From positions 310,001 to 374,000 of the forward strand of contig BROI01000006.1 of assembly GCA_027923505.1 (NCBI GenBank): DNA of 64,000 nt, written 5' to 3'. Position numbers and translations under genes: made by a program. The notes beneath the pieces were generated by a model. It had not been told where the DNA came from. It ran no database searches and saw nothing but the letters and a program-made list of their open reading frames with translations. Below are positions 3,201-43,540 of this stretch, piece after piece; the first letter of the stretch is position 1, and each line of letters begins with the position of its first letter. The stretch is from Mayamaea pseudoterrestris. Lineage: Eukaryota.

Positions 3201-5333
3201 TGCTGGACCGCCCGCAAGAGAATAACGAGTTGATAGCGTTTCCTGCTTAAAGCCGCCATTCTCAGGATTGGCGTGCTCAAGTACACGGTCCATCTCTGTC
3301 TGAGTCAAAACTGGAGATTGCAGGTGGATGAGACGTGCACCCTTTTCAGAAACCTGGTAAATGCTTTCTTTCTTTCCCAGAGTTGTTCCAAGCGACATGA
3401 CAACACCTTCGCGAAGAGGATCGATCGGCGGATTCGTAACTTGAGCAAATCTTTGTTTAAAGTAGTTAAATAAGGGATGATTTCGCTCAGATAGAACGGA
3501 CATTGGCGCATCGTCACCCATAGAATAAGTCGTCTCTTTGGCAGACCCTGCCATATCTTGTATTTGCATGCCAATATCCTCCAAACTCCAGCCAAACGTC
3601 GCCTGGGCGAAAGTAGTCGTCTTGTCATCGTAAATTCTACTTTCATCTGGTTCCATTTTTACAACGTCCTTGCGTCCCTTTGCAATCCATTCACCATAAG
3701 GATGACCTGCGTCAAGAAGCGTGAGCAAGTCTAAAAGAAGCAGCCTATATGCAAATATTCATTCTCGATACTTACGTTTAGCAATCATGCTTTTGACAGC
3801 AATATTGTCCATGAATTCGCCGGTTTCCAAGTCGACATTAATCATTTCCCCGGGTCCTAAACGTCCCTTCTTTACAATATCCGCTTCGTTCAAATTCGGA
3901 ATGACTCCAGTTTCACTCATCATGTACACAGTTCCGTCCTTTTCGATCGAATACCGGGCAGGTCGCAAACCGTTTCTATCCAGCGATGCACCAACCGTTT
4001 TTCCGTCAGAGTACAGAAGTAGGGCAGGTCCGTCCCATGCCTCCAAGAGACCGCTGTGAAATTTGTAAAAATCAACAATCTCTGGATTGTTATCAAGACT
4101 TGGGTTATTTTCGTACGCCATTGGCACCATGGCCATGAGTGCACATGGAGCGCGATGCCGAGACTTTGTCATGAGTTCAAAAACGCCATCCAAGTTTGCC
4201 GAGTCAGAGCGATCCAAATCAACGACAGGTTCCAAAAAGAGAGGAACATCCTGCGTGTCGAGCATGGTAATTATATTCTCTGTTCTCTCGTAATCGACGA
4301 TGTCCATGCCGGAAACCTTGTTCTTAGCTGCCTCACGCGCCTTGACCCAGTTAACGTTACCAAGAAGTGTATTGATTTCTCCATTGTGACCAACAACGCG
4401 CATTGGTTGCGCCAAGGGCCATCGCGGATTAGTGTTTGTCGAAAATCGTCGATGGTAAATAACAAACTTGGAAGTGTAGTCTTCGTTAGTCAGGTCTTTG
4501 TAAAATGCCGGCAGTACTTCCGACTTGACCATGCCCTTGTATACAATGGTTCTGGAGCTAAAGGAAGCAAGGTAAACTTCATCATCATCCCAAACGAGCC
4601 CACGCTCACGTCGCACGACGCCAAATCGACGTCGCAACAAGTAAAGCGTACGTTCAAACCCATCACGCTCATTGTCATCATTCAAGCTCGCAGGAGCCTT
4701 GACGAAAAACTGCCAAATACTGGGCATTGCCTTGCGAGCGCTCTCTCCAAGCACGGACGGATTGACAGGAACTTCTCTCCATCCCAAGAATCCCAATTCA
4801 TTCGTCTTGCAAACATCCTCAATCAATTCCATCGACGCCTTTCGTCGATCATCATCACGCGGCAAAAACACCATGCCTACCCCAGGTTGCATGCAACTGT
4901 CCGATACAAAATCCTTGAACAGTTTCCATGGAATTTGCGTCATGATTCCGGCACCATCGCCCGACTCGCCGTCGCCTCCGCAGGCGCCCCGGTGCTCCAT
5001 GCAGCCCAAGGCTGACAAGCCTTGCTGCAGTACGCGATGCGTGGCCTGTTTGGTATTGGCAATGAACCCGACGCCGCAGGCGTCACGCTCCTTGACCAAT
5101 GGCATGGGACCGTCAAACATGTTGGAGGGGGCGTCCGTGGGAAAGGCGAAACGTTGCGTGGTGGTTGCTGTTGAAGTAGTGCTCGGGCGCGAGCAATGTG
5201 ATTGATCGGCATGCTGCCTAGAGTCGGGACGAGTCGCGACAGAGTATTGTAATAAACTCTTGGATGTCAGAGACTGCGGTGCAAAGGCCTCGACGCCAGC
5301 GGACACGAGCAGTAGGGAAAGAGCCGACTTCAT
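204..5333 (-). CDS. Ferredoxin-dependent glutamate synthase (Fd-GOGAT), plastid-targeted; 2 exons, intron 3707-3775
   Basis: ORFs 3759-5351 and 204-3728 join across a GTAAG...GCAG intron to read AKR/HPYGEW. Motifs: ERDACGVGF (amidotransferase Cys), HRRFSTNT, GKSNSGEGGED, CIMARVCHLNTCPVG (3Fe-4S) and GXGXG repeats. There is no NADPH beta-subunit fusion. Presequence MKSALSLLLVSAGVEA-FAP. Confidence 0.95.
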
Positions 5334-5810
5334 AATGATGGTGATGGCCAATGAAAGTGCGTCAGGCGTGTCGAAAGAAGAAACAGTGAGATGAACAAAG
5401 TAGCTATCCCTACGAAATGCTCAAGTCCTCAGTTTGTTCTTCTTCTTCACTTTCAGCTGCGACTGGAAGCCAACAAGAATAGAAGCAAAAGTACTGGCGG
5501 AGAAAACGAGAGACGTGAGCTGCGTTTGTTCCGACGTTTCTTCCTTGCAAATGCACCTTCGCGCAGTCAGTCGAGTTCGAAGCACCAGAACCACGAAAAT
5601 TGAGTACCGATGTGATATTCTTGTCACGGTACGACATTTTTGAAAATCCACGGAGGATTGCAATTTGCTCATGAGCGCTCATGAAACGAAGCTAGCGTGA
5701 TATTGAAGCACAGTATCAATCACAACAGTCGCTGGAGAGTACATTCGGGAAGCTCTCGCCAGCACCATGGCATCCTTCGCCCTCGATTACTGCTACATTA
5801 AGCCCATACC

Positions 5811-15291: not shown

Positions 15292-15915
15292 TTGACAGGC
15301 ATTGTTTCATGATGTAGAAAGTGCAATGCAGTCAGTGCTAGCCCATCTAGTCTCCAAGTTCTGCGACAGGGACTGCAGAATTTGTGCCCCTACGCTTGTC
15401 CACAGTTGTTGGCTGCCTTAACCCACTCCAACAGCCAGAGAGGTGTAAACTGATAGCTGGCAGTTGACAAGCTTTTTTTATGATGTAGAAAGTGTAATGC
15501 AGTCATTGCTAGCCCATCTAGTCTCCAAGTTCTGCAACAGGGACTGCCAGAATTTTGTGCCCCCTGGCTTTTCCACAGTAGCTGGCTGCCATAACCCACT
15601 CCAACAGCCAGAGAGGTGTAAACTGATAGCTGGCAGTTGACAAGCTTTTTTTATGATGTAGAAAGTGTAATGCAGTCATTGCTAGCCCATCTAGTCTCCA
15701 TGTTCTGCATCAGGGACTGCCAGAATTTTGTGTCCCCAGGCTTGTCCACAGTAGCTTGCTGCTATAACCCACTCCAACAGACAGAGGTGTGTAAACTGAT
15801 AGCTGGCAGTTGACAGGCAATGCTTCATGATGTAGAAAGTGCAATGCAGTCATTGCTAGCCCATCTACTAGCCTCCAAGTTCTGTGACAGGGACTGCCAG
15901 AATTTCGTGCCCCTA
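15292..15915. repeat. Tandem satellite, unit about 171-174 bp, about 3.6 copies
   Basis: TGATGTAGAAAGTG recurs at 15310, 15481, 15654 and 15828. Confidence 0.92.
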
Positions 15916-16101: not shown

Positions 16102-16416
16102 ACGAACCTTTATTCCAGTGACTACAATGGACTAGGAGCGATCAACCTCTTCGTCCAGCGTAAAGCAAATAAACAAACTCAATTGCTAGAATAGTGCGTG
16201 CTACTCGCTACTCTACATACTCGTGCTCTTCTTCTCTGTTCTCACTGGTTCACAGTCGAGGTTCACGCCTCGATCATCAGCGAATTCATTCATGTATGTG
16301 AGGATTTGGTCACATGAGTGACTCAATCCAACACAGGATTCAAATGCATACAAATACAGGTAGCTAACCGTCTTGTCATAAGACGCAGGTCAACTCAACT
16401 CAATAATATTGTGTCA
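16102..16416 (-). mobile_element. LTR relic, same family as 30044-30377, truncated at its left end
   Basis: About 310 bp of clear similarity to 30061-30377, ending ...AATAATATTGTGTCA directly against the 371-bp satellite. Confidence 0.75.
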
Positions 16417-19400
16417 TTTGATGTGGTGGAACCACTTGGAGGAACCTACTTGCTATATTCACGCATAACCACTGGATGACTGGCTTCCAAATTGGAACAT
16501 CTCAACCTTTGACTTTGTCAAACATCTTATCCTGATTGCCATGGCATGCTCAGAATCATGCTAGCAAGGTTGGATCATCACACAAATCCCAACTGAAACT
16601 TTGCTGTGTTTGGCACATGAAACACCCTCCTTGTTTCAGTCTCAGTCACACCCCAGCCACTGCCAGAATAGCTGCTGTTTTCAAAGTTCCAAGCCTTGGA
16701 CCTTGTGAAGCACCTTATGCGGATTGCAGTAGCAGGTTCAGATTCGTGCTGGCCAGGTTGCATCACTATACAAATTCCATCTGAAACTTTGATGTGGTGG
16801 AACCACTTGGAGAAACCTACTTGCTATATTCATGCTTGACCACTGGCTGACTGGCTTCCAAATTGGAACATCTCAACCTTTGACTTTGTCAAACATCTTA
16901 TCCTGATTGCCATGGCATGCTCAGAATCATGCTAGCAAGGTTGGATCATCACATAAATCCCAACTGAAACTTTGCTGTGTTTGGCACATGGAGCACCCTC
17001 CTTGTTTCAGTCTCAGTCACACCACAGCCACTGCCAGAATAGCTGCTGTTTTCAAAGTTCCAAGCCTTCAACCTTGTGAAACGCCTTCTGTGGATTGCAG
17101 TAGCAGGTTCAGATTCTTGCTGGCCAGGTTGCATCATTATACAAATCCCATCTGAAACTTTGATGTGGTGGAACCACTTGGAGGAACCTACTTGCTACCG
17201 TCACTTTGAAAAGTCTTTGCAACAAATCTTGTGCGGAGGTGTTCTCAATGGCTATATTTTGCAGCAATATTCTAAATAGCCTATAACATTCTTCAATACT
17301 CTGCGGGTGTTATAGAGGTTGTCCCGTTTGAATTGACTAGATGGTCCCGCCAAACACCTCGTCGCAAGCTGAGGATCGATGAGTCGTCAAAAAGACTGGC
17401 TCGCGCGCATGGTACTTAACCCACGTGGCTTACGTGGAGCTTGTTTTCGCCTTGCGGGACCCCCACCAGACATAGGCAACCATTTCACTGCTTGAAACTA
17501 CTCATTGATACATAAGTAATTGATGAATGAACATGTCCTTGGGCAATAGAGCTATATTGAATAGGTCGTGACACGACTTTTCAAAGTGACGGTATATTCA
17601 CGCTTGACCACTGGCTGACTGGCTTCCAAATTGGAACATCTCAACATTTGACTTTGTCAAACATCTTATCCTGATTGCCATGGCATGCTCAGAATCATGC
17701 TAGCAAGGTTGGATCATCACATAAATCCCAACTGAAACTTTGCTGTGTTTGGCACATGGAACACCCTCCTTGTTTCAGTCTCAGTCACACCACAGCCACT
17801 GCCAGAATAGCTGCTGTTTTCAAAGTTCCAAGCCGTCAACCTTGTGAAACACCTTCTGCGGATTGCAGTAGCAGGTTCAGAATCTTGCTTGCCAGGTTGC
17901 ATCACTATACAAATCCCATCTGAAACTTTGATGTGGTGGAACCACTTGGAGGAACCTACTTGCTATATTCACGCTTGATCACTGGCTGACTGGCTTTCAA
18001 ATTGGAACATCTCAACATTTGACTTTGTCAAACATCTTATCCTGATTGCCATGGCATGCTCAGAATCATGCTAGCAAGGTTGGATCATCACATAAATCCC
18101 AACTGAAACTTTGCTGTGTTTGTCACATGGAGCACCCTCCTTGTTTCAGTCTCAGTCACACCACAGCCACTGCCAGAATAGCTGCTGTTTTCAAAGTTCC
18201 AAGCCATCAACCTTGTGAAACACCTTCTGCGGATTGCAGTAGCAGGTTCAGAATCTTGCTTGCCAGGTTGCATCACTATACAAATTCCATCTGCGGTGTT
18301 TGGCACATGGAACACCCTCCTTGTTTCAGTCTCAGTCACACCACAGCCACTGCCAGAATAGCTGCTGTTTTCAAAGTTCCAAGCCTTGGACCTTGTCAAG
18401 CACCTTCTGCAGATTGCAGTAGCAGGTTCAGGTTCTTGCTGGCCAGGTTGCAACACTATACAAATCCCATCTGAAACTTTGATGTGGTGGAACCACTTGG
18501 AGGAACCTACTTGCTATATTCACGCTTGACCACTGGCTGACTGGCTTCCAAATTGGAACATCTCAACATTTGACTTTGTCAAACATCTTATACTGATTGC
18601 CATGGCATGCTCAGAATCATGCTAGCAAGGTTGGATCATCACATAAATCTCAACTGAAACTTTGCTGTGTTTGGCACATGGAGCACCCTCCTTGTTTCAG
18701 TCTCAGTCACACCACAGCCACTGCCAGAATAGCTGCTGTTTTCAAAGTTTCAAGCCGTCAACCTTGTGAAACACCTTCTGCAGATTGCAGTAGCAGGTTC
18801 AGAATCTTGCTTGCCAGGTTGCATCACTATACAAATCCCATCTGAAACTTTGATGTGGTGGAACCACTTGGAGAAACCTACTTGCTATATTCATGCTTGA
18901 CCACTGGCTGACTGGCTTCCAAATTGGATCATCTCAACATTTGACTTTGTCAGACATCTTATCCTGATTGCCATGGCATGCTCAGAATCATGCTAGCAAG
19001 GTTGGATCATCACATAAATCCCAACTGAAACTTTGCTGTGTTTGGCACATGGAGCACCCTCCTTGTTTCAGTCTCAGTCACACCACAGCCACTGCCAGAA
19101 TAGCTGCTGTTTTCAAAGTTCCAAGCCATCAACCTTGTGAAGCACCTTCTGGGGATTGCAGTAGCAGGTTCAGATTCTTGCTGGCCAGGTTGCATCACTA
19201 TACAAATCCCATCTGAAACTTTGATGTGGTGGAACCACTTGTAGGAACCTACTTGCTATATTCACGCTTGACCACTGGCTGACTGGCTTCCAAATTGAAA
19301 CATCTCAACCTTTGACTTTGTCAAACATCTTATCCTGATTGCCATGGCATGCTCAGAATCATGCTAGCAAGGTTGGATCATCACATAAATCTCAACTGAA

Positions 19401-20545
19401 ACTTTGCTGTGTTGGGCACATGGAACACCCTACTTGATTCAGTTGCATTCACACTACAGCCACTGCCAGAATAGTTGCTGTTTTCAAAGTTCCAAGCCTT
19501 CAACCTTGTGAAGCACCTTCTGCAGATTGCAGTAGCAGGTTCAGATTCTTGCTGGCCAGGTTGCATCACTATACAAATCCCATCTGAATTTTTGATGTGG
19601 TGGAACCACTTGGAGAAACCTACTTGCTATATTCACGCATAACCACCGACTGACTGGCTTCAAAAGTTGGAACATCTCAACCTTTGACTTTGTCAAACAT
19701 CTTATCCTGATTGCCATGGCATGCTCAGAATCATGCTAGCAAGGTTGGATCATCACACAAATCCCATCTGAAACTTTGCAGTGTTTTGCACATGGAACAC
19801 CCTACTTGTTTCAGTCTCAGTCACACCACAGCCACTGCCAGAATAGCTGCTGTTTTCAAAGTTCCAAGCCGTCAACCTTGTGAAACACCTTCTGCGGATT
19901 GCAGTAGCAGGTTCAGAATCTTGCTTGCCAGGTTGCATCATTATACAAATCCCATCTGAAACCTTGATGTGGTGGAACCACTTGGAGAAACCTACTTGCT
20001 ATATTCACGCATAACCACTGGCTGACTGGCTTCCAAATTGGAACATCTCAACATTTGACTTTGTCAAACATCTTATCCTGATTGCCATGGCATGCTCAGA
20101 ATCATGCTAGCAAGGTTGGATCATCACATAAATCCCAACTGAAACTTTGCTGTGTTTGGCACATGGAACACCCTACTTGTTTCAGTCTCAGTCACACCCC
20201 AGCCACTGCCAGAATAGCTGCTGTTTTCAAAGTTCCAAGCCTTCAACCTTGTCAAGCACCTTCTGCGGATTGCAGTAGCAGGTTCAGGTTCATGCTGGCG
20301 AGGTTGCATCATTATACAAATCCCATCTGAATTTTTGATGTGGTGGAACCACTTGGAGAAACCTACTTGCTATATTCACGCATAACCACCGACTGACTGG
20401 CTTCAAAATTGGAACATCTCAACCTTTGACTTTGTCAAACATCTTATCCTGATTGCCATGGCTTGCTCAGAATCATGCTAGCAAGGTTGGATCATCACAT
20501 AAATCCCAACTGAAACTTTGCTGTGTTTGGCACATGGAACACCCT
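16417..20545. repeat. 371-bp tandem satellite array (9 full units plus 1 partial); each unit is a dimer of related 188- and 183-bp monomers
   Basis: Unit starts at about 16417, 16788, 17159, 17927, 18478, 18849, 19220, 19591, 19963 and 20334. Unit 3 carries a MITE (+397 bp) and unit 4 an extra monomer (+180 bp). Confidence 0.97.
17198..17592. mobile_element. 395-bp MITE, Tc1/mariner-type (TA target duplication)
   Basis: Perfect 18-bp TIR CCGTCACTTTGAAAAGTC with TA on both sides. The empty site CTTGCTATATTC is visible in the other satellite units. Confidence 0.93.
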
Positions 20546-23500
20546 TTGCAGGATGCGAACGAAAACAGCGAAAATCGGGCAAGTCACACCGAATATCCGA
20601 TAGGGTGACACAGCGGCACTCGCGGCTCACCACAGCCTCACGATCGCGTGATGCGTGGCAGCGACGGCTTCGAAGCGATTCAACGAGTATATTGCTGAAA
20701 CTAGTGCGATATAGAGTAGAAACAAGCAGACTTACTAAGCTTGAAGAGTTAAGAAAGCGATTTATTCGTCTCTCGTATTGTAGCAACTGCAAGCTTGGAT
20801 TGGCCATCCAAGGACAGCTACAAGCGAAAGGTGCAACGATTTGATTTACAAGTTACAAGATTAACAGTCTTGAGACTCATTGCCTCGGCATAGAGACTTT
20901 ATCGACGAAGAGTACTATTGATTTACGAAGTAACGTGGACGCACGTTGGTTCTTGGCCCGGAAAGTTCCGCAGGTGATAGCAAGAACATTGTCACGACGA
21001 CAACGATGGCGGAAACTCGCGCGCAGAAAGACGCGGCGTTTGCGCATGTTTACGAAGAGAACGTAGGCGTTTTCCAAGATCCTCAGTTCAAGGAGTTATT
21101 CGACGAACTCGGAGTAGAATCGCTTACGCAATTGATTGAGATGGAGTACGACGATTTCGCGACGAAGTGGAACGTCACGACGACGACAACGACGACGACT
21201 GACGATGGCGACAATGTCACGCAGGAAACGAGCGAACACTCGCTAACGAAGATGAAACAACGCACGATCACGAACGCGATCGAATGGTATTTGGCGCAAG
21301 AGTCGCCGGACATCAAGACATGGTCGCAACTGACCACCGAAACGCTGGCGACGTTCGTCACAGCACGAGCGAAGGAACGAGTCCAAGCGCGCAACATTGC
21401 GAGCGTGGGCAGCGGAAGCGGAGCGAAACCTCCAGCGAAGGAAAGCGAAACGGAATCCAAGAAGGACGAATCCAAGGACTCCACGCTAACGAACGAAGGC
21501 GACGAGTCGAAGCCCGACTCGGCCGACAAGGTGCCACCGACGAGCGTGGACGTGGACACGAAGCAGTCACCGACATCCGTACTGGACCTCGGTGACGACG
21601 AAGACGACGAGAAGTATTCAGACCAATTTACGAAGTCTATCAAGTTCTCGGCGAAGGATTGTAAAGAAATGAAGCTGGATTCCTCGTGGAAACAGTGGAT
21701 TTCCGAGTTGAAAGTCATCGCTACATTGCACGACTTCCACGAAGTCTTTGACGACGATTATGACCCGAAGGAAAAGGGACCAAAGGAACAGAAGGCGTAT
21801 GCAAAGAAGAATGTGTTTGTGTACAGGATCTTTCTCACGCACTGTCGAACTCCGTCTGCATCACTCGCAGTACAGCAGTTCAAGAAGACGATGGATGGAC
21901 GCGAAGTCTACCAACGATTGCGAACGCGATACGAAGAGGGCGCTACTGCTCACATCGAGAAGGAACGCGCGCGAACGGAACTGCAGGGAATGCGGCTGAC
22001 CGAGAAGTGGTCAAGGCCGACGATCGAATTTCTCGCACTGTTCTACAAGAAAGTCATCTGGCTGCTCGAAATGGACGCAGAAGCTCTGACAGGTTTACAA
22101 CGATACGACATGCTACGCGACGCTTTCTCTGAGCACACTGGATTCAGCGCATCACTAGCAGGTTTTGACGGAATGATTGCCATCAAGAAACACATGGGGC
22201 AACACGACTCGGAAGACAATTTCGCGCAGTTGTACGCGCACTTAGAAGAGTGCTGCATCAAGTATGACAAGAAACATCCATCGACGACGAAGACTAAGCG
22301 CACAATCAATCAAGCGCAGTCTAGTGGAACGAAAGGAGGCGGCGGCGGCAATGGCGGCGCGACTCCAAGCGGCTTATCGGCGGAACGATTTGCAGCGATC
22401 ATGAAGAAACCTCACGCGAGCGTGAAGGATGAAGTCTGGTTGGAGATGAAGTTCGATCAGCGAAAGCAGTTGAAGGACAAGCGTGCGACGGCGCCCAAGA
22501 CACCCGAAAACGGATGGCGACCGCGCAACCAACGAGGCACGGCTACGACGCAGACGCAAGTCAACGCGGCGCATCAAGAGCGTCACGCGACGGAATCTGT
22601 AGCGAACGATCACGCAAGCGTTCCTGGCACGATTAATATTCAGCCAGGCAATAGTGGAATGTCAGTCCAAACGGCTGCACGATCGGTTCTGCAAGCGAAC
22701 AATGCGAGTACTACAACTCAGCAAGTGACAGGATCGTTGACGACTGATAACACCGGACGAGGTACATTCAGCTTCAACATGCATCGTCGTATGCGCGTCA
22801 ATCGCGCACACTACGAGCGGATCAACGAAGGCGCGCTCATCGACAGCGGCGCGAACGGAGGCTTATGCGGAGGAGACATGCTCGTCGTTTCGGAAACGAA
22901 CGCCGAGGTGGATGTGACTGGTATTGACGATCATATTGTCCCAGCTCTCAAGATTGGCACTGCAGCTGGACTGGCAAAGACCCTTAGTGGCGAAACCATT
23001 CTGCTTTTGTGTCACCAGTATGCTTTAAAGCGAGACGGACCGACGATTCATTGCCCGAATCAATTGCGCGCAATGGGACATCGCGTCGACGATATTCCGA
23101 CCATGTTTGGCGGAACGCAACGAATTACGACGAACATTGGAGGCTACGTTTTGCCATTGGCAATTCGCGATGGCCTGGTGTACTTGGACGTGACGAAACC
23201 CACGTTCGATGATTTGGATAAGTATCCGACTGTCATCATGACGTCGGACGTGCCGTGGGACCCGACTGTTTACGATGTCGAGCACGCGCACGACGATTTC
23301 GACGAACGAGATCACGATTATGGATCTTTCGACGAACGATTCGATGATGACGGTATCACGCACCGCAATCGTCACACGCCGACACGCACTGGCGACGAAC
23401 TTGACGTACTGATCAATCGGTGCGTGCGACACGCTCAGTTTTCACGCGTTAATTTGCGGAAGCTAAGAAGCAAGGAACCGGACTATAATGCTCTTCGGCC

Positions 23501-26500
23501 GTACCTCGGATGGGTCCCGACTGAGCGAGTTCAACAGACTTTACGTCACACGGAAGCATGGTATCATCTCAGCGAACATCCGCGATTACCATTTCGACAC
23601 CTCACGAAATCACGATTTCCGGCCGCGAACGTTCAGCGGTTGCGCGAACTATTCGCCACGGACACGATACACTCTGACACGCCAGCTTTGGATGATGGAA
23701 TTCTAGGGCATGGGGGAGCTACTAAGATGCAGCTCTTTGTTGGACGAGAAAGTTTTTACACGCGCGGCTACCCGATGAAGTCGGAGAGCGAAATGTCAAA
23801 CGCGTTAGAGGATTTTATCCGCGAAGTGGGCGCTCCTAACGGACTGCTCAGCGACAATGCCAAGTCGGAGACTGGCAAGGCTGTGAGGGATCTCTGTCGG
23901 ATGTACAATATTCCTCAAGTGACCACAGAACCGGGTCATCCAGAACAAAATCCATGCGAACGTCACACGTCGCACATTAAGCCAATGATGGAGAACCTCC
24001 AACGAGATTCGGGTTCGCCAGGCCATTGCTGGGTTTTGCTGATTAAATTCGTAATCATGATTCTGAACGTCCTCGCGACGAAATCGCTGGGATGGCGCAC
24101 TCCAACGGAAGTTGCGTTCGGAAATTTGCCGGATATTTCGCCTTTGTTACATTTCAAGTGGTGGGAACCGGTCACGTTTGAGGCGCAGGGGAGTTTTCCC
24201 TCGGCGGTACGATCTGGCAACGGCCGATTCGTGGGCATCGCAGAGAATAGCGGTCCGCACATGACTTTTCTCGTTCTGACGGACGATACGCTTCAGGCGA
24301 TTCCGCGCTCCAACGTGGTCTCGCGCAGCTACTTGTTACCACGAGAGTTGCCTTCCTTCCCTGAGTCTGGAGGGGAGATTTCTGAAGAAGCTACACGCGC
24401 AAGCGAACGAAATTTTGAAACTCCAGATCTCGCGACAGGACGCTACCATAGCACGAATGCGACAGAAAGTAGTCACGACAACTACGAAGGAAACGACGAC
24501 GAAACGATTCCGATGGCGAACCACGCCAACGTACCAGCGAAGTTCTTCAGAAGGGCTGAGCAAGAATCAGGGAATAAATGCCCTCTGTTCTCTCCAAGCA
24601 AACTCATCGGACGCACGTTCGTAAGGGAACACGAAAACGGTCAGAAAATGCGAGCGACTGTATGCGAATATATCGAAGTACGCGATAACGAGCTACTCGA
24701 AACGACGAAAGGTTTCTTGATCCAGATGGGAGAAGAGCCAGCGAAAGACTTAATAAGTTACAACGAACTGTCGGATTTAATCGAACGACAGATGGACGAA
24801 GATATACGAAACGATCCGGCGACTCAGTGGGTATTCACGAAGGTAATCGGACACGAGCTTAATTTGAAACCGAACGATCCGACATACAAAGGAAGTTCAA
24901 GTAACGTTCTCGTCGAGTGGACTGACGGAACAACGACGTGGGAGCCTCTCGCGATCATGAAGAAGGACGATCCGATAACGATCGCAGAGTATGGACTCAA
25001 GCACGGCTTACTCGACAAGCCAGGATGGAAGCAGCTGGAACATTACACTCGGAAGCGAAAGAAGTTTCGACAGATGGTGACAGCAGCGAAACGAAAATCG
25101 AAAGCAAACGGCGTACGCTACAAATTCGGCGTAAGGTTGCCGCGCAATTATAAAGATGCGAAAGCTCTCGACGAGATCAACGGCAACACGCTGTGGACGG
25201 ACGCGATTCGAACGGAATTAAATCAGATAAATGATTACGACACGTTCGCAGATCAAGGAGTCGGTAAGGTTATGCCGGCGCCGTGGAAACGAATAAACGT
25301 GCACATGATATTCGATGTCAAGCACGATTTGCGACGGAAAGCACGACTCGTCGCAGGAGGACATATGACAGAGCCGCCGAAGGATTCAGTTTACTCGGGC
25401 GTTGTGTCATTGCGAAGTCTACGAATGGTAGCGATGTTAGCGGAACTCAACGGTCTGGAACTGTGGGCAGCTGACGTCGGCAACGCATACTTGGAAGCGA
25501 AAACGAAAGAGAAGGTTTATATCGTGGCAGGTCCGGAGTTCGGGGAGCTCGAGGGTCACACGCTCACGATCGTGAAGGCATTATACGGTCTTCGCACGTC
25601 AGGCGCACGCTGGCACGAGCACTTTGCAGACACGCTCCGCGACATTGGCTTCACGCCGTGTATCGCAGAACCGGACGTGTGGATGCGCGATAAAGGCACG
25701 CACTACGAATACGTTTGTGTGTATGTCGACGATTTAGCGATAGCGATGAAGAATCCGAAGGAACTAACGGATCTTTTAATTGAGAACTACAACTACAAGT
25801 TGAAGGGCGTCGGTCCATTGGCATATCATTTGGGCGCAGACGTTTGGCGAGACGACGACGGCGTACTCTGCTTCGGAGCGAAGAAGTACGTCACAAGACT
25901 ACTAGCGAACTACAAAGAAATGTTCGGCGAGGAACCGCGACCGCAGACAAGTCCACTACGCGACGGCGATCATCCGGAACTCGACGAAACGAAAGAACTT
26001 GACGACGACGGAATTGCGAAGTATCAATCGATCATTGGTGCGTTGCAATGGGCAGTAAGTTTATGTCGATTCGACATTCACTGTGCTGTCATGACTATGG
26101 GGAGATTCCGAGCTGCGCCACGAGCGGGGCACTTGGAACGGTTGAAGCATATTTGCGGATACTTACGAAGATACCCGGATGGAGCGATTCGATTCAACGT
26201 TTCGATTCCAACGGACGAGCGATACGCGACAGTTGACAAGATGGATTGGGATTACAGTGTGTACGGCAAGATCTGCGAAGAGCTTCCGTGGAACATGCCC
26301 ACGCCGCGCGGCAAGGCGGTGCGAATGTCAACGTTCGAAGATGCGAACCTGTACCACGATTACACGACGGGACGGGCAGCGATGGGCATGCTACACATGT
26401 TGAATGGAACAGTCGTCGATTGGTTTTCGAAACGCCAAGCGACGGTCGAGACGGCGACGTACGGCTCGGAGTTTGTAGCAGCGAGAGTGAGCACGGAGCA

Positions 26501-27128
26501 GATCATGGATCTTCGCTTCACGCTACGCATGTTGGGAGTTCCGCTCGACGGACCTTCATGGATGTTTGGAGACAACAAGTCGGTAACGCAAAGCAGCAAC
26601 CTACCGCACTCTAGTCTGACGAAGCGACACAATGCACTGGCATTTCACCGTGTACGCGAAGCGATTGCGGCGGGAATTATTAATTTCAACCACATCATGG
26701 GAACGACAAACCCGGCGGATGTACTTACCAAGTTTCTTCCACGGGCTACGGCAAGCAAGCACTTAAAGAACCTGCTCTTCAAGGAATCTAACTATTAGGT
26801 ATGACTTGAGGGGAGTTGCAGGATGCGAACGAAAACAGCGAAAATCGGGCAAGTCACACCGAATGTCCGATAGGGTGACACAGCGGCACTCGCGGCTCAC
26901 CACAGCCTCACGATCGCGTGATGCGTGGCAGCGACGGCTTCGAAGCGATTCAACAAGCATATTGCTGAAACTAGTGCGATATAGAGTAGAAACAAGCAGA
27001 CTTACTAAGCTTGAAGAGTTAAGAAAGCGATTTATTCGTCTCTCGTATTGTAGCAACTGCAAGCTTGGATTGGCCATCCAAGGACAGCTACAAGCGAAAG
27101 GTGCAACGATTTGATTTACAAGTTACAA
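20546..27128 (+). mobile_element. Full-length Ty1/copia (CoDi-like) LTR retrotransposon; LTRs 20546-20858 and 26816-27128
   Basis: 313-bp direct repeats differing at 3 positions, PBS at 20859-20872, PPT GAGGGGAG before the 3' LTR, and an intact gag-pol ORF. No target-site duplication. Confidence 0.96.
21006..26798 (+). CDS. Copia Gag-Pol polyprotein (Gag-PR-IN-chromo-like-RT-RNaseH), single ORF
   Basis: Protease LIDSGA; integrase ATDT..LLSDNA..QNPCER; RT KARLVAGGH, DVGNAYL, KALYGL, YVDD; RNaseH EDAN..GSEF..GDNKS..NPADVLTK. The IN-before-RT order identifies copia. Confidence 0.96.
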   Translation: MAETRAQKDAAFAHVYEENVGVFQDPQFKELFDELGVESLTQLIEMEYDDFATKWNVTTTTTTTTDDGDNVTQETSEHSLTKMKQRTITNAIEWYLAQESPDIKTWSQLTTETLATFVTARAKERVQARNIASVGSGSGAKPPAKESETESKKDESKDSTLTNEGDESKPDSADKVPPTSVDVDTKQSPTSVLDLGDDEDDEKYSDQFTKSIKFSAKDCKEMKLDSSWKQWISELKVIATLHDFHEVFDDDYDPKEKGPKEQKAYAKKNVFVYRIFLTHCRTPSASLAVQQFKKTMDGREVYQRLRTRYEEGATAHIEKERARTELQGMRLTEKWSRPTIEFLALFYKKVIWLLEMDAEALTGLQRYDMLRDAFSEHTGFSASLAGFDGMIAIKKHMGQHDSEDNFAQLYAHLEECCIKYDKKHPSTTKTKRTINQAQSSGTKGGGGGNGGATPSGLSAERFAAIMKKPHASVKDEVWLEMKFDQRKQLKDKRATAPKTPENGWRPRNQRGTATTQTQVNAAHQERHATESVANDHASVPGTINIQPGNSGMSVQTAARSVLQANNASTTTQQVTGSLTTDNTGRGTFSFNMHRRMRVNRAHYERINEGALIDSGANGGLCGGDMLVVSETNAEVDVTGIDDHIVPALKIGTAAGLAKTLSGETILLLCHQYALKRDGPTIHCPNQLRAMGHRVDDIPTMFGGTQRITTNIGGYVLPLAIRDGLVYLDVTKPTFDDLDKYPTVIMTSDVPWDPTVYDVEHAHDDFDERDHDYGSFDERFDDDGITHRNRHTPTRTGDELDVLINRCVRHAQFSRVNLRKLRSKEPDYNALRPYLGWVPTERVQQTLRHTEAWYHLSEHPRLPFRHLTKSRFPAANVQRLRELFATDTIHSDTPALDDGILGHGGATKMQLFVGRESFYTRGYPMKSESEMSNALEDFIREVGAPNGLLSDNAKSETGKAVRDLCRMYNIPQVTTEPGHPEQNPCERHTSHIKPMMENLQRDSGSPGHCWVLLIKFVIMILNVLATKSLGWRTPTEVAFGNLPDISPLLHFKWWEPVTFEAQGSFPSAVRSGNGRFVGIAENSGPHMTFLVLTDDTLQAIPRSNVVSRSYLLPRELPSFPESGGEISEEATRASERNFETPDLATGRYHSTNATESSHDNYEGNDDETIPMANHANVPAKFFRRAEQESGNKCPLFSPSKLIGRTFVREHENGQKMRATVCEYIEVRDNELLETTKGFLIQMGEEPAKDLISYNELSDLIERQMDEDIRNDPATQWVFTKVIGHELNLKPNDPTYKGSSSNVLVEWTDGTTTWEPLAIMKKDDPITIAEYGLKHGLLDKPGWKQLEHYTRKRKKFRQMVTAAKRKSKANGVRYKFGVRLPRNYKDAKALDEINGNTLWTDAIRTELNQINDYDTFADQGVGKVMPAPWKRINVHMIFDVKHDLRRKARLVAGGHMTEPPKDSVYSGVVSLRSLRMVAMLAELNGLELWAADVGNAYLEAKTKEKVYIVAGPEFGELEGHTLTIVKALYGLRTSGARWHEHFADTLRDIGFTPCIAEPDVWMRDKGTHYEYVCVYVDDLAIAMKNPKELTDLLIENYNYKLKGVGPLAYHLGADVWRDDDGVLCFGAKKYVTRLLANYKEMFGEEPRPQTSPLRDGDHPELDETKELDDDGIAKYQSIIGALQWAVSLCRFDIHCAVMTMGRFRAAPRAGHLERLKHICGYLRRYPDGAIRFNVSIPTDERYATVDKMDWDYSVYGKICEELPWNMPTPRGKAVRMSTFEDANLYHDYTTGRAAMGMLHMLNGTVVDWFSKRQATVETATYGSEFVAARVSTEQIMDLRFTLRMLGVPLDGPSWMFGDNKSVTQSSNLPHSSLTKRHNALAFHRVREAIAAGIINFNHIMGTTNPADVLTKFLPRATASKHLKNLLFKESNY

Positions 27129-27172
27129 TAGCAGGTATGCAACAGAAAGTAGTATCACTATGCCGTTAAAAG

Positions 27173-27254
27173 TAGCGCACCTCGGAATCGAACCAAGGAT
27201 AACCGGCTATATCACCTCTAAACACGCTGCTACTTTTCCGTCTGCTAGTGTACT
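27173..27254 (-). ncRNA. tRNA-like Pol III unit inside the TRIM 3' LTR
   Basis: Acceptor AGTACAC/GTGCGCT, A-box-like TAGCAGACGG, variable hairpin, T-arm CTTGG-TTCGATT-CCGAG (B box) and downstream TTTT. The anticodon stem does not pair. Confidence 0.7.
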
Positions 27255-27642
27255 ATATGCTGCATACAAGGCACCATGCACTATGACAAGTAAAGGTATC
27301 GCTCTGGTTGCTGTTTTTCGTGTGCAACCTGCTACTCCCCTAGCTTTGCGCGTCATAGTGCTAACTCGTCTTCCGTTTCAGCTGGCATTTTCGTCTCGCG
27401 GGGGAATGTCACTTTTCAGTTTTTCCTGCGGCGTTTCGGGCTCGGCGCATCTTTGTGCACTCCCCAGGGTCCGCGACTCCCCATCGTTCGTTCGTGACAA
27501 ACCCGTGCAACCAGTGAATTTTTGCTTTTTCTTCGCTTGATTCGATCGCAACTCGAACCAGCAGCCTCAGTCCAGATCTCTCGATAGGGACGCTACCATA
27601 GCAGGTATGCAACAGAAAGTAGTATCACTATGCCGTTAAAAG

Positions 27643-27724
27643 TAGCGCACCTCGGAATCGAACCAAGGATAACCGGCTATATCACCTCTAAACACGCTGC
27701 TACTTTTCCGTCTGCTAGTGTACT
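27643..27724 (-). ncRNA. tRNA-like Pol III unit inside the TRIM 5' LTR
   Basis: Identical copy of 27173-27254. Confidence 0.7.
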
Positions 27725-27804
27725 ATATGCTGCATACAAGGCACCATGCACTATGACAAGTAAAGGTATCGCTCTGGTTGCTGTTTTTCGTGTGCAACCT
27801 GCTA

Positions 27805-29824
27805 CGAGTACGAGACGTTTCAAGATCTTGGTCCGAGTTCCATCACAGCACCACCAACTGGTTACCAAAAGATCCGAGTCCATTTTGTGTACGATGTCAA
27901 GCATGATTTGCGATACAAGGCACGTCTTGTTGCAGGCGGCCACTTGACGAAGGACAACGACGATGCCTACTCCAGTGTTATCTCATTGAAGGCAATGCGT
28001 CTAGCTCTCGTCATTGGAGAAGCAAACGGCAAGAAGTGCATGGTCGGTGACATTGGGAATGCTTATCTCGAAGCGTTCACTAAGGAGAAGGTATACTTCG
28101 TTGGAGGCCCCGAGTTCGGTGAGCGCGAAGGACACATCCTGGTCATCGCCAAGGCTTTGTACGGATTGCGAACGAGCGGAGCACGATTTCACGAACGCTT
28201 AGCCGACGCCCTACTTGCGGAAGGATGGAAGCCGTCCTATTGCGATTCCGATCTGTGGATCAAGGACGCCGGCGACAGCTACGACTACCTCTGTGTGTGG
28301 GTCGACGATCTGTTGAATATTTCAGACGATCCAGCAGCGTTCTTCAAGATGCTAGAGGAGAAGTACAAGTTTACGCTCAAAGGTGTTGGACATCCCGAGT
28401 ATCATCTCGGCGGTGACTTTGGACGAGACCCTGACGGAACTCTTTACTGGTCGGCCAAGACCTACGTTGCGAAACTCTTGGCGCAGTACGAGCGTTTGTT
28501 TGAAGGTCCTCCGAAGAAGTACTCATCACCGATCGACAAAGACGACCATCCAGAACTTGACCAAAGCGAGCTACTGAACGACCAAGAGAAGAAGATTTAC
28601 CAGTCTCTAGTCGGAGCACTTCAGTGGGCGATTACTTTGGGACGATTTGACATTGCCGTTGCAGTTGTGAGTCTGTCGCGATTCCGTGTGGAGCCGCGCA
28701 AGGGACACCTGCAGCGGGTGAAGCGAGTCTGTGGATATTTGCGAGAGTTACCGGACGCAGCAATCCGTTTCCGTACGAAGTGGCCAGCCAACGAGGAGCA
28801 CTTCGGCACCATGGAGGAACAAGATTGGGAGCGCAGCGTTTACGGGAAGGACGGAGTTGATGAGATGTTGGACGTCTACCCACCGCCAAAGGGTGTGACC
28901 GTGCGAACATCAACTTTCGAGGATGCGTGTCTCATGCATTGCATGGTGACAGGCAAGTCATTGGAAGGAGTTTTGTCATTTGTCAACCAGACGCCTGTCG
29001 ACTGGCATTGCAAACTCCAGGCTACAGTCGAGACTGCGACCTTCGGATCGGAATTCGGCGTAGCAAAGAGCGGAACGGATATCAGCATTTCTCTACGCGC
29101 GTCGCTCATGGCTATGGGCGTACCATTGGAGAAGTCTGCCTGGATGTACGGAGAAAACCAAGCAGTGATTACGCAATCTACAATCCCGAGTTTGACGTTG
29201 TCCAAGCGACACAATGCGTTGGCCTACCATTGTGTTCGTTGGGCAGTTGCTGCGGGGATTATCAAGTTTGTAAAGATTGACGGAAAGGAGAACATTGCGG
29301 ACGTACTGACGAAGTACCTGCCGTACTGTGATGCGATGCCATTGCTCAAGCCAGTATTGTTTTGGCGCGGCGATACATCGTATGCGATTGTGAAGGACAA
29401 GAATGCGGCTACGACGAGCAGCGAACCCGAGGGGAGTGACGAGTCGCAGAGCGGCGAAGTCAAGAGCCCGAACCCTAATTAGCTTGTGTCGAGTCCGCAG
29501 CTGTCGTATGTGACATGTGAATGAAGAAAGTGCGCAACCGCCGTGTGGATGCGTTGTATGAATGGAACGACCAGTTACGACTGATGTAATGTGATTGAAA
29601 GAAACGGATTGATCAGATGATCTTCCGAGTGGTCGATGTAGCGATGTAGCGATAAGCTCACAATATATAGAACTACTAGTTTGCGACGAGAGTGCAGTCG
29701 TATTCGTGTAGTGGCGAGCGCAAGACTATTCGACGAGCCATCTCCATCAAGAGCTGTACAGACCGTGGCCAAGGACCCTGTATCGGAGCTTTTTGGAGGT
29801 AAGACGTTGACTGCGAAATCGTCA
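27805..29824 (+). mobile_element. 5'-truncated copia: RT-RNaseH (open frame to 29482) plus 3' LTR 29437-29824
   Basis: EYETFQDLG..YDVKHDLRYKARLVAGGH, WVDD and ENIADVLTK. PPT GAGGGGAG is followed by an LTR with TGACGA...TCGTCA termini. Confidence 0.92.
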
Positions 29825-30377
29825 ACGGTGTTAAATACCTCGCTTTCCGCAAGTCCTTACTCAAACAACAACCACTCTCAATGCAGTCGAGCCTTATATG
29901 ATCCTTTTATACGCACTCATGCCAAGTTTTTGGATTGACGACACCACAAGGAATCTGCTCTTTCTCTCTCAAACTCTCGATTCTTTCACTCTCTCTTTCG
30001 CACAGCTCTCTCAGGTCAAGACAAGCTAGCAAGACTGTTAATCTGACACGATAATATTAGACGAACTTTTACTCCAGCAATTACAATGGACTAGGAGTGA
30101 TCAACCTCTTCGTCCAGCGTACAGCAAACAAACAAACTCAATTGCTAGAATATTGCATGTTACTCGCTACTCTACTCGTGCTCTTCTTCTCTGTTCTCAC
30201 TGGGTTCACGGTTGAGGTTCACACCTCAATCGTCAGCGAATTCATTCATGTATGTGAGGATTCGGTCACATAAGTGACTCAATCCAACACAGGATTCATG
30301 TCAAATGCATACAAAAACAGGTAGCTAACCGTCTTGTCATAAGACGCAGGTCAACTCAACTCAATAATATTGTGTCA
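29825..30377 (-). mobile_element. 5' LTR (30044-30377), PBS (30030-30043) and leader of a further LTR element, interrupted by the 27805-29824 copia
   Basis: TGACAC...GTGTCA termini, followed immediately on the minus strand by GATTAACAGTCTTG, the same PBS as the full-length copia. Confidence 0.8.
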
Positions 30378-36320: not shown

Positions 36321-36990
36321 TCAGAAGAAAACTGGGTGGGATTGGAGCGGGGAGTCAAGGAGTGCGGGAAAGAAAGTTGGGAATTGGTGCATGGCGGGTA
36401 GGGTTTTAACGTGACGGGAACGGATCATGGTGTCGGATTGCCAGCGATGCGGTCGAAGTCTACGTTGGAGGATAGAAGAGCTTCGGTGCCGCTCTGTCGG
36501 TAGGCTGAATGCCCAGGGCGATAGCGGAAGGCGGCAGTGATGTGCCCAGAGCAAAGAAGTACGGAATGGCCAGCGGCATGGGTGAAGCATTCGGGTGGGC
36601 GCGTAGGTGGAGAGCTGCTGGCGTAGGATGGCATGTGAGGCAGAGGAGGCGGTCGCCCGTGAGACCATGGGTGAAGACCTCACCGCGGTTCCATTCTTTT
36701 GGTTGGTTGAATCTTGTGAAACATGCCAGATTGGCAGCGGGGGCAATGGTAACGATTCAGCGACCACCAAAACAGCTCATCTGTCGGAGAGGCCAGTGTT
36801 TTTGCCGGGGCAGGAGGAAGAATAGGCAAAAATGTGGACATGTCAGCAATGATAATCTGCGGGAGAAGTCAAGGGGAATAATTTATCTCTCATGGGCGCA
36901 GTGTACCGGGGGAATGTGTGTGGTGTCCCGAACATGCATGCACTACTCCAAAGCACCATCCACTTTATCTCCACGACAACACTCCCGCTG
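36321..36990 (-). mobile_element. Degenerate tyrosine-recombinase fragment (DIRS/Ngaro-like retroelement)
   Basis: Frameshifted NQKNG.RGEV..HG..G....C and RWQSDTMIR..HV..LP.M..F motifs; DNA similarity to 43740-44000. Confidence 0.6.
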
Positions 36991-39369: not shown

Positions 39370-41470
<2,101 letters not shown>

Positions 41471-43074
41471 AGCTGGCTCAATCTTGATTTCATGTACCGC
41501 AGTGACCAGATGAGCTATTGGGTTAATTATATGGGGCTTATGCGCATGATATCACAAACTTATCCACCTATGTTCATGAGTTGCTTGTGAAGCCAGCCAG
41601 CATATGCTGGATCACTTTTTCAGCTGTATCATCATAAATATGCTTGTATGGACGCAAAACGTCACTTGATGTGGACTTTTCGAAACCTTGCGGTGGCATT
41701 TCCTTTTGTCACTGATACAGGGTGTGCGTTTTTTGACTTTGCGCTCAAAATATTGCATATGGGCCCCCGGACGGAGTATAGCGAGATTCATGCAAATGCT
41801 TTCGAGTTATGTTCTAACAGCTACCCCCCAGCAATGGATTACAAGAAGCGTTTCCTTCTGGATGGGGGCTTTATAATCAGTCTTGTCGTTTTTCTTGCTG
41901 GTACCAATGTACGTTGCATCTACAATCATGTGGCTCAAAATGAATACTTCCTCACTCTCTCTCTCTTCCATTTTACAGGTGGTTGCTGCTAAAGCTGCTT
42001 TGGAGGCAGTGACCAATATCCTATCAGATGTTTGCGATGTTAGCAATTGGTTCAACCATGGTGGAATTAGCTGCGTCAGGAAGTGGGTCCGGAACGCAGA
42101 CGACGATGTGTGATTTCACGCGTGTAACGCTCTTCTTAATATTGCCTCCAAAGGATCGAAGGTGCATCCACAAGCATTGGTCAATTCCACTGATAAACCT
42201 AAGAATTTGTTCATTGAGAGGCTCAAGGCAGGGGATGCCGCGGACGATGCAGGTAAACTTATACACATGTACTCAAGGTCTTTAAAAGGATTCTACCAAG
42301 TCCACCGGATGCCTCAAGTATTCTCGGCTGAACGCCAAGCAAAGGTAATAGCTGCTGTCATTGCTGTTAGGAATCAAGACCCCACAGTCATGTAGTGGGT
42401 GACTGAACTTCAGCAGTCATTTCATTGGTAGTGTACTTTAAATATAAACTCGTTTACTTACTGAGCAATAGTTAACTATTTATCGGAGCCGTCGAGCCTC
42501 CACCATCTTATTGCGTTGCGGCACTGATGAGCAAAGCCGGTGGCTGTATCATGCATAATGAGCCAATTATGGCCTTGCTTATGAGTGAGGGATGCTAAAG
42601 TCCAAATGCAAGGGTCCGTCGCGCCATTCATTTCGAGACCTCGAGTCATAAACATCTTGTAGACCATTGCATTAGTGGTTCAAATTTTTTAAACAACGTG
42701 CGACAGGCGCCAACGTTCGTGTGTGCATAATATTTCTTCTCCTTCTCATCAAGCACAATTCTCTCGATGCCACATTCACCTCAACTCTATCATGCAGCTC
42801 CCACAAGGCGTCAAGTTTCTGAGGGAAGTGTCTTCGACCAAAAATCATCTCTCGCCACGCAAAGAAAACCATTGGCGGCACCGCATTCTTTGCGCGTTTG
42901 CTTGACGATGGTGGTGGTGTAACTGCAACCTTCTCTGCCTCAATTAATTGCTGCTGTTTATAAATTGATGCAACCTGCCTTTCGCATCTCATGCAAATGC
43001 TTTTGCAAGGCTTTTGAAGCTCTGCTGGAACAGCCATGAGCCAATGCTCGAGGCAATCTCCTTCAATGGTTTGA

Positions 43075-43211
43075 AGCAAGCAGACTTACTAAGCTTGAAG
43101 AGTTAAGAAAGCAAATTATTTGTCTCTCGTATTGTAGCAACTTCAAGCTTGGATTGGCCATCCAAGGACAGCTACAAGCAAAAGGTGCACAATTTGATTT
43201 ACAAGTTACAA
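43075..43211 (+). mobile_element. 3' half of an older LTR of the 20546-27128 copia family
   Basis: Matches 20722-20858 with several CpG>TpG/CpA changes; ends AGTTACAA. Confidence 0.9.
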
Positions 43212-43540
43212 GCCTTGTAGAACTTTCCAAAATAAGGGGGCTGGATCCCTTCCATGTGAGAAGGTGGGAGATCATGGCCCAGCGCTTGCGCGCCTGCATG
43301 ACATTCCTGTGCACTGCCGGCCAGTCGCTGTCAAAATAGTTCAATGGGCGGCCCAAGTACACAAATGTTTATCCTGGAGGAGGGCTCCACTGCGCTACCG
43401 CGTTGTGAGCTCTGCGACATGTTTGTTCCATATTCTGCTCTGAAGACCAGCCACCAAACCTGCTGTCCGGAAACAGCAGTGGCACGCAGCAGAGGATACC
43501 AGGCGACTCACCAACCCACATCACATCTAATTCACACCTT
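43212..43540. mobile_element. Non-LTR (LINE-like) retrotransposon fragments in opposite orientations
   Basis: Minus strand: YLGRPL..DSDWPAV.RN..ARKRW..FYKA. Plus strand: ILEEG..LPRCELCDMFVP..HQT.C. Confidence 0.55.

What the first reader, a model, noticed from the sequence alone, without database searches (positions are those of the whole stretch)
20859..20872. Two unrelated LTR families share a PBS complementary to a tRNA-Asn anticodon arm (half-tRNA priming)
Seen: GATTAACAGTCTTG follows the 5' LTR of the intact copia, and also follows the dissimilar LTR at 30044-30377 on the minus strand (30030-30043). It lacks the TGG of a normal PBS. Its reverse complement CAAGA-CT-GTT-AA-TC reads as tRNA positions 27-40 with anticodon GTT. 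Established: Drosophila copia and yeast Ty5 prime with a tRNA-iMet half cut in the anticodon arm. Inference: these diatom elements use a cleaved tRNA-Asn 5' half, which could tie transposition to stress-induced tRNA cleavage.
Basis: partly seen in the sequence, partly recalled or inferred. Interest (0 to 1): 0.72.

Follow-up and report, generated by a model that had tools for sequence, protein, structure and literature searches.

The report
Copia primer site matching tRNA-Asn arm
Two different retrotransposon ends in this window carry the same primer-binding site, which is the exact complement of a tRNA-Asn anticodon arm, so these elements most likely start reverse transcription from a cut tRNA-Asn, a known trick not previously noted for this host group.

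Summary
GATTAACAGTCTTG directly follows the 5' LTR of an intact Ty1/copia element (20859-20872, +). It also directly follows a dissimilar LTR at 30044-30377 (30030-30043, -).

Its complement has the shape of an anticodon arm with anticodon GTT. In copia 1 the complementarity extends to 17 nt, the whole arm. A metagenome scan with that 17-mer put 59 of 120 matches exactly on the anticodon arm of tRNA-Asn(GTT) genes.

Published tRNA tables show that diatom arms vary. T. pseudonana differs at one base, which still pairs as G-U. F. cylindrus differs at six.

Contigs from runs holding this window contain a tRNA gene matching a 57-nt tRNA-Asn core with 3 substitutions whose positions were not reported. 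At least one is inferred to lie in the T stem. The host arm therefore differs from the primer-site complement at no more than 2 of 17 positions. An exact match is not shown.

Priming from an internal tRNA segment is already published for Met, Ile, Arg, Lys, Tyr, Asp and, once, Asn-GTT in rust fungi. This is a new member of a known kind. The proposed link to stress-induced tRNA cleavage is not supported: the predicted cut lies in the stem after nt 40, not in the loop.

The parts
20546..20858 (+). 5' LTR of copia 1 (313 bp, TTG...CAA termini)
   Evidence: 99% identical to 26816-27128
20859..20872 (+). Primer-binding site, complement of tRNA-Asn(GUU) positions 27-40. Complementarity to the whole arm (27-43) runs over 20856-20872.
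   Evidence: The 17-mer lies on the anticodon arm of 59 tRNA-Asn(GTT) genes.
20934..26798 (+). Single gag-pol open frame of copia 1, 1954 aa, integrase before reverse transcriptase
   Evidence: rve at residues 943-1003 (below the Pfam cutoff) and RVT_2 at 1448-1659. D-S-G motif near residue 637 seen.
26808..26815 (+). Polypurine tract GAGGGGAG abutting the 3' LTR
26816..27128 (+). 3' LTR of copia 1
30044..30377 (-). Second LTR family (LTRb), TGACAC...GTGTCA termini, oriented so that the 14-mer follows it
   Evidence: No similarity to the copia 1 LTR.
30030..30043 (-). Same 14-nt primer-binding site directly after LTRb
16102..16416 (-). Second LTRb copy, 91% identical, same orientation, 3' end and primer site missing
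27806..29482 (+). 5'-truncated RT-RNase H fragment of another copia (copia 2), 51% aa identity to copia 1. It lies on the opposite strand to LTRb, so it is not LTRb's coding region.

Best explanation
The 14-mer is the minus-strand primer-binding site of two LTR retrotransposon families. It pairs with the anticodon arm of cytoplasmic tRNA-Asn(GUU), positions 27-40, not with a tRNA 3' end. A primer needs a free 3' OH opposite the first base after U5. So the inferred primer is a 5' fragment of tRNA-Asn of about 40 nt, cut in the 3' strand of the anticodon stem. This is the half-tRNA priming known from Drosophila copia, Ty5 and several plant and fungal copia lineages. Shown: the position and identity of the site in both elements, its fit to an anticodon arm, and the existence of that arm in natural tRNA-Asn genes. 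Inferred: that the host's tRNA-Asn has this arm, that it is cleaved after nt 40, and that the fragment is used as primer.
For: (1) The site abuts the LTR end with no spacer in both elements.
(2) Its complement reads as a 5-nt stem, a 7-nt loop C-T-G-T-T-A-A with T33 and A37, then the start of the returning stem. In copia 1 the last LTR bases complete the arm to 17 nt.
(3) In the metagenome scan of the 17-mer, 59 of 120 matches lie in ARAGORN tRNA-Asn(GTT) genes with the 17-mer exactly on the anticodon arm. These give 44 distinct sequences. At least 4 more matches have tRNA-like flanks by eye.
(4) T. pseudonana tRNA-Asn has the arm CGAGA-CTGTTAA-TCTTG, one difference that still pairs as G-U (supplementary file 4 of PMC4156623).
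(5) Contigs of 3 of 4 runs that hold the window contain a tRNA gene that aligns to the 57-nt core of L069's tRNA-Asn with 3 substitutions and no gaps. Its loose ends give a perfect 7-bp acceptor stem, discriminator G and a T-run. One substitution is needed to keep the T stem paired.
(6) Identical sites behind dissimilar LTRs argue for a primer supplied in trans.
(7) Neither LTR has significant complementarity to the site. LTRa's best match is 8 of 14, reached by 492 of 500 shuffles. LTRb's is 10 of 14, reached by 60 of 500.
Against: The positions of the 3 substitutions in the host tRNA gene were not reported (table 3 is empty). So an exact host match is not shown, and its anticodon was not read directly.
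Diatom tRNA-Asn arms vary. F. cylindrus has TGCGA...TCGCA, sharing only 11 contiguous nt with the site's complement. Membership of the group does not guarantee a match.
No related retroelement with this site was found elsewhere. 0 of 118 metagenome loci hit the copia 1 protein at E<=1e-5. 58 downstream frames from 35 of the 59 non-tRNA matches gave a best E of 0.018; the 24 short loci were not examined. No relative was found in viral contigs.
The second element has no identified coding region, and its LTR/site boundary rests on a terminal inverted repeat alone.
Copia 1 has no target-site duplication (CACCC versus TAGCA).
No primer fragment was observed.
Confidence: 0.75

Rival explanations
1. 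The primer is a stress-induced tRNA-Asn 5' half, cut in the anticodon loop, so transposition is gated by stress-dependent tRNA cleavage.
For: tRNA-derived small RNAs are abundant and stress-induced in diatoms. In the supplementary table of PMC4156623, Asn-GTT has the third-highest weighted count listed for F. cylindrus (passages). Long tRNA fragments rise under iron starvation in P. tricornutum (passages of PMC4247016).
Against: The site pairs through nt 40 and abuts U5, so the primer 3' end must lie in the stem, beyond the loop. A loop-cut half would end 3-7 nt short of the U5 edge. Neither paper mentions tRNA-Asn in its main text ('Asn': 0 occurrences). No fragment ending at nt 40 was seen.
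Confidence: 0.1
2. The site pairs with another RNA that shares the stem, for example tRNA-Phe(GAA), or with an unidentified small RNA.
For: T. pseudonana tRNA-Phe(GAA) has the same stem, CAAGA/TCTTG. A second host contig fits a tRNA-Phe-like gene: discriminator A and exactly the 4 differences expected if its D-loop and anticodon loop match those of T. pseudonana tRNA-Phe (by inference).
Against: The tRNA-Phe loop CTGAAGA mismatches the site at 3 central positions, giving 11 of 14 against 14 of 14 for the Asn arm. In the two published diatom tRNA sets, CAAGACT occurs only in tRNA-Phe, and the loop CTGTTAA occurs only in the Asn and pseudo-GTT entries.
Confidence: 0.07
3. Self-priming as in Tf1: the 5' end of the element's own transcript folds back on the site.
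For: The copia 1 site region can form a hairpin as RNA (-7.8 kcal/mol, z = -2.8).
Against: That hairpin is simply the anticodon-arm palindrome, and the LTRb site does not fold better than shuffles (z = +0.7). There is no significant complement in either LTR. Identical sites behind unrelated LTRs are not expected under self-priming.
Confidence: 0.03
4. The second site does not belong to an independent autonomous family. LTRb is a non-autonomous or truncated element that uses the same primer because a copia 1-like element mobilises it.
For: No coding region lies downstream of LTRb on its strand, and the only frame there has no Pfam hit. The adjacent RT fragment is on the opposite strand. Fungal TRIMs share anticodon-loop sites with their copia partners (section 3.6 of PMC10886601).
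Against: Only one damaged locus was seen. Nested insertions (copia 2, a TRIM, copia 1, a satellite) lie between the two LTRb copies and could have replaced an internal region.
Confidence: 0.35

Closest known systems
Drosophila copia and yeast Ty5 (Hemivirus-type priming by a tRNA-iMet fragment)
   Same: Ty1/copia architecture. The primer site lies directly after the 5' LTR, lacks TGG, and is complementary to the anticodon stem-loop, implying a cut in the 3' strand of the anticodon stem. [quoted passage not shown] The titles of the two primary papers were seen in a reference list. The 39/40 cleavage site in copia is recalled, not read here.
   Different: The tRNA is Asn(GUU), not initiator Met. 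CoDi-like diatom elements are placed in copia Branch 1 with Pseudovirus, not with the copia-like hemiviruses (passage of PMC2774666). Whether copia 1 is CoDi-like was not tested.
Rust-fungus Copia families and Helenus TRIMs (Kojima 2024, PMC10886601)
   Same: [quoted passage not shown] Unrelated LTRs share a site with a copia partner (section 3.6 read).
   Different: The hosts are fungi. There the Asn case is a non-autonomous TRIM lineage. Here an intact autonomous copia carries the site.
Plant Bianca (half tRNA-Ile) and Osser/Bryco/Gymco-II (half tRNA-Met) lineages (Neumann 2019, PMC6317226)
   Same: Half-molecule tRNA primers generated by cleavage in the anticodon stem, found only in Ty1/copia (passages).
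   Different: Different tRNA and different host kingdom. tRNA-Asn is listed there only among primers that use the tRNA 3' end.
Candida albicans gamma/Tca2 group (internal tRNA-Arg UCU) and fungal FunCo1 (internal tRNA-Lys)
   Same: The site is complementary to an internal tRNA region. Several LTR families in one genome share a site class (passages). The FunCo1 site ATTAAGAGTCT differs from the core of this one at a single base, the one pairing with the first anticodon base.
   Different: Different tRNA species. Those reports gave no host-level check of the kind attempted here.

Membership tests
Ty1/copia LTR retrotransposon (Pseudoviridae) | Direct LTRs flanking an internal region | tested here: met
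   313-bp LTRs, 99% identical
Ty1/copia LTR retrotransposon (Pseudoviridae) | Integrase upstream of reverse transcriptase, with an RVT_2-type RT | tested here: met
   rve at residues 943-1003 (E 4.5e-4, below the Pfam cutoff). RVT_2 at 1448-1659 (E 3e-25).
Ty1/copia LTR retrotransposon (Pseudoviridae) | Primer site after the 5' LTR and polypurine tract before the 3' LTR | tested here: met
   Primer site at 20859-20872 and GAGGGGAG at 26808-26815
Ty1/copia LTR retrotransposon (Pseudoviridae) | 5-bp target-site duplication | tested here: not met
   The flanks CACCC and TAGCA differ. The 3' flank is a TRIM end and the 5' flank a satellite, so the locus is rearranged. This bears on this copy, not on the family.
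Half-tRNA (Hemivirus-type) priming | Primer site complementary to an internal tRNA segment (anticodon arm), not to the 3' CCA end | tested here: met
   No TGG. The complement is the exact anticodon arm of 59 natural tRNA-Asn(GTT) genes.
Half-tRNA (Hemivirus-type) priming | The host's own tRNA carries the complementary segment | tested here: inconclusive
   The host tRNA gene is within 3 substitutions of a 57-nt Asn core, so the arm has at most 2 differences. Their positions were not reported. T. pseudonana has 1 difference (G-U) and F. cylindrus has 6.
Half-tRNA (Hemivirus-type) priming | A cleaved tRNA fragment is packaged and extended by RT | not testable with these tools
   Needs primer mapping in particles
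Genus Hemivirus / CoDi-like clades (phylogenetic membership) | Position of RT-RH in the copia tree | not tested

The most novel reading that the evidence does not exclude
Unrelated LTR retrotransposon families in this alga have converged on one host molecule, a roughly 40-nt 5' fragment of tRNA-Asn(GUU). Production of that fragment would then be a shared bottleneck that couples bursts of retrotransposition to conditions that raise tRNA-Asn cleavage, such as nutrient or oxidative stress.
Probability: 0.1. Interest if true: 0.7.

Novelty: new member of a known kind. Interest (0 to 1): 0.35.

Why it matters
The finding extends half-tRNA priming with a non-initiator tRNA to an intact copia element of a photosynthetic protist. 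It also shows two dissimilar LTRs sharing that primer.

It offers a clean comparative test. Published diatom tRNA-Asn arms differ between species. If the reading is right, primer sites of related elements should co-vary with each host's arm.

It does not change the known mechanism. The stress-cleavage idea that made the finding attractive is the least supported part.

Tried and rejected
- **Host genome:** none is held for this window, so no direct tRNA scan was possible. The window itself holds only tRNA-Leu(TAA).
- **Retroelements in the metagenome scan:** none found. Only 35 of the 59 non-tRNA matches were examined for downstream frames.
- **Diatom contig among the tRNA-Asn hits:** none identified. 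L018 and L049 look like large DNA viruses (capsid domains or capsid-like frames). L026 and L041 are AT-rich tRNA clusters. L001 has no frames.
- **Copia 1 RT-RH in viral contigs:** no relative found.
- **Sequence-word search of papers:** 0 papers for the 14- to 15-mers.
- **Main-text searches:** Maumus 2009 (PMC2806351) has 0 occurrences of 'primer binding' or 'tRNA'. Llorens 2009 (PMC2774666) has 0 occurrences of PBS. Supplements of these two papers were not examined.
- **P. tricornutum small-RNA paper:** the single supplement held as text had no Asn entry, and its Table S3 was not visible.
- **RNA runs:** no RNA holder is listed among the runs.
- **Run X4:** laid no contig.
- **LTRa against LTRb:** no similarity in either orientation.
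- **Rfam on 27100-27850:** the eye-spotted tRNA-like stretch gave no match at E<=1.
- **36567-36769 and 43797-43999 as an LTR pair:** 82% similar, but with no clear LTR ends.

Full report
**The observation**

GATTAACAGTCTTG occurs exactly twice in the window, at 20859-20872 (+) and 30030-30043 (-). A third hit with two mismatches (53772-53785) lies in ordinary sequence near a gene start and is taken as chance. Allowing two mismatches, 0 of 100 shuffles reach three hits.

**Copia 1**

- The two LTRs are 20546-20858 and 26816-27128. They are 313 bp, 99% identical, with TTG...CAA termini.
- The 14-mer starts at the first base after the 5' LTR.
- One open frame (20934-26798, 1954 aa) carries an integrase core before an RVT_2 reverse transcriptase. 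A D-S-G protease motif is visible.
- GAGGGGAG (26808-26815) abuts the 3' LTR.
- There is no target-site duplication: the flanks are CACCC and TAGCA. The left flank is a 371-bp satellite and the right flank is the end of a small terminal-repeat element, so the locus has been rearranged.

**The second site**

- On the minus strand an LTR runs from 30377 to 30044, with termini TGACAC...GTGTCA, and the 14-mer follows it directly.
- A second copy of this LTR lies at 16102-16416 (91% identical, same orientation). It fixes the 5' edge but has lost the last ~17 nt and any primer site. The edge next to the 14-mer therefore rests on the terminal inverted repeat.
- The LTR is unrelated in sequence to the copia 1 LTR in either orientation.
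- The neighbouring RT-RNase H fragment (27806-29482, 51% identical to copia 1) is on the plus strand and cannot be this LTR's coding region.
- The 547 bp between it and the primer site has no detectable gag. It could be this element's leader, or the 3' LTR of the plus-strand fragment nested just behind the primer site.
- The second family is thus known only by its LTR and primer site.

**What the site matches**

Its complement reads as a 5-nt stem, a 7-nt loop C-T-G-T-T-A-A (T at 33, anticodon GTT, A at 37), then the start of the returning stem. In copia 1 the last three LTR bases complete the returning stem, so 20856-20872 is the complement of a whole 17-nt arm.

I scanned the metagenome collection with that 17-mer.
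- ARAGORN placed 59 matches inside tRNA-Asn(GTT) genes with the 17-mer exactly on the anticodon arm, giving 44 distinct sequences.
- 2 matches fell in calls labelled tRNA-Ala.
- 59 matches fell outside any call. At least four of these have tRNA-like flanks by eye.
- None is a retroelement (only 35 of the 59 were examined for frames).

The arm is therefore a real and common tRNA-Asn arm. The contigs I could judge were phage-like, bacterial or giant-virus contigs, not the host.

**Diatom tRNAs in print**

Supplementary file 4 of PMC4156623 lists tRNAs of two diatoms (passages only).
- T. pseudonana tRNA-Asn has the arm CGAGA-CTGTTAA-TCTTG. This is one difference from the complement of the site, at position 28, and it would still pair as G-U.
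- F. cylindrus has TGCGA-CTGTTAA-TCGCA, which is six differences.
- T. pseudonana tRNA-Phe(GAA) has the same stem as the site's complement but a different loop.

The arm varies within the group, so the host itself has to be checked.

**The host check**

Five runs hold the window's DNA in large part. I laid the contigs of four of them on the tRNA-Asn gene of locus L069, which has the exact arm and D and T arms like those of F. cylindrus. Three runs each gave two contigs. X4 gave none.

- **First contig.** It aligns over 57 nt (D arm, anticodon arm, variable loop and most of the T arm) with 3 substitutions and no gaps. Its unaligned ends supply a perfectly paired 7-bp acceptor stem, a G discriminator as in the published Asn tRNAs, and a T-run five bases downstream. 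Keeping the T stem paired requires one of the three substitutions to lie there. The tool's table of differing letters was empty, so the other two are unlocated.
- **Second contig.** It aligns over 41 nt with 4 substitutions, has discriminator A and a T arm like that of T. pseudonana tRNA-Phe. Four is exactly the number expected if its D-loop and anticodon loop match those of that tRNA-Phe.
- **Conclusion.** The host has a tRNA gene of the Asn type whose anticodon arm differs from the complement of the site at no more than 2 of 17 positions. An F. cylindrus-type arm is excluded for this gene. An exact match is likely but not shown.
- **A further argument, by inference.** The primer's sequence is copied into new element copies at each cycle. 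Two young, unrelated elements with the same exact site therefore probably report the host arm faithfully.

**Mechanism**

Reverse transcriptase extends a 3' OH paired opposite the first base after U5. The site therefore implies a tRNA-Asn fragment ending at C40, or at 41-43 in copia 1 where pairing can run into the LTR. That means a cut in the 3' strand of the anticodon stem, as described for half-molecule primers (passage in PMC6317226). Self-priming is not supported.

Those halves are described as cut in the loop and would end short of the U5 edge. tRNA-Asn-derived small RNAs are abundant in the two diatoms surveyed, but nothing seen shows a fragment ending at nt 40.

**Comparison with what is known**

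Internal-tRNA priming is the trait by which hemiviruses are set apart. It is no longer restricted to initiator Met.
- Half tRNA-Ile in plant Bianca elements.
- Internal tRNA-Arg(UCU) in Candida families.
- Internal tRNA-Lys in fungal FunCo1.
- Anticodon loops of Tyr, Ile, Asp and, once, Asn-GTT in rust-fungus Copia and Helenus elements.

I found no statement about primer sites of diatom copia elements. This is main-text searching only, and supplements of the diatom element papers were not seen.

The finding is a new member of a known kind. It is of moderate interest, mainly because species differences in the tRNA-Asn arm give a ready co-variation test.

Noticed in passing
window 27129-27805 (minus strand): A 677-bp terminal-repeat element in miniature. 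It has 207-bp direct repeats (27129-27335 and 27599-27805, 99.5% identical) with inverted termini TAGCAGGT...ACCTGCTA. A classical TGG-type primer site, TGGTAGCGTCCC (27598-27587), follows the 5' repeat, and AGGGGA precedes the 3' repeat. Its first 8 nt match the 3' end of the E. huxleyi Met-CAT tRNA listed in PMC4156623. The repeats contain a stretch that looks like a tRNA T arm by eye, but Rfam finds nothing at E<=1. It sits exactly between the copia 1 3' LTR and the copia 2 fragment.
   Followed up: partly
window 16417-20545 and 15292-15913: A 371-bp satellite of about 11 copies fills the space between the truncated LTRb copy and the copia 1 5' LTR. A separate 173-bp tandem repeat of 3.6 copies lies just upstream.
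   Followed up: no
window 43073-43212: A 140-bp fragment of the copia 1 LTR (94% identical) ends in ...ACAAG. That is the LTR end plus the first base of the primer site, after which the similarity breaks off. It is a remnant of a 5' LTR junction.
   Followed up: partly
window 40106-40942 (+): A third copia RNase H fragment, 48% aa identity to copia 1 residues 1672-1949, inside the frame 40025-41230. No LTR or primer site was identified for it.
   Followed up: no
host contigs laid on L069:781-821: A second host tRNA gene, probably tRNA-Phe(GAA), appears to share the CAAGA/TCTTG anticodon stem with the site's complement, as T. pseudonana tRNA-Phe does.
   Followed up: partly
L018, L019, L066, L010; L026, L041; L049: Giant-virus-like metagenome contigs carry tRNA-Asn(GTT) genes with the same 17-nt arm. 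Those of L026 and L041 sit in tRNA clusters. L018 encodes an NCLDV major capsid protein and ThyX.
   Followed up: partly
window 36567-36769 and 43797-43999: An 82% similar repeat pair 7.2 kb apart, GC-rich, without recognisable LTR ends.
   Followed up: partly
window 204-5420 (-): A glutamate synthase reading frame is split by one stop at 3758/3759 into 553-aa and 1184-aa frames. This may be an intron or a sequencing issue.
   Followed up: no
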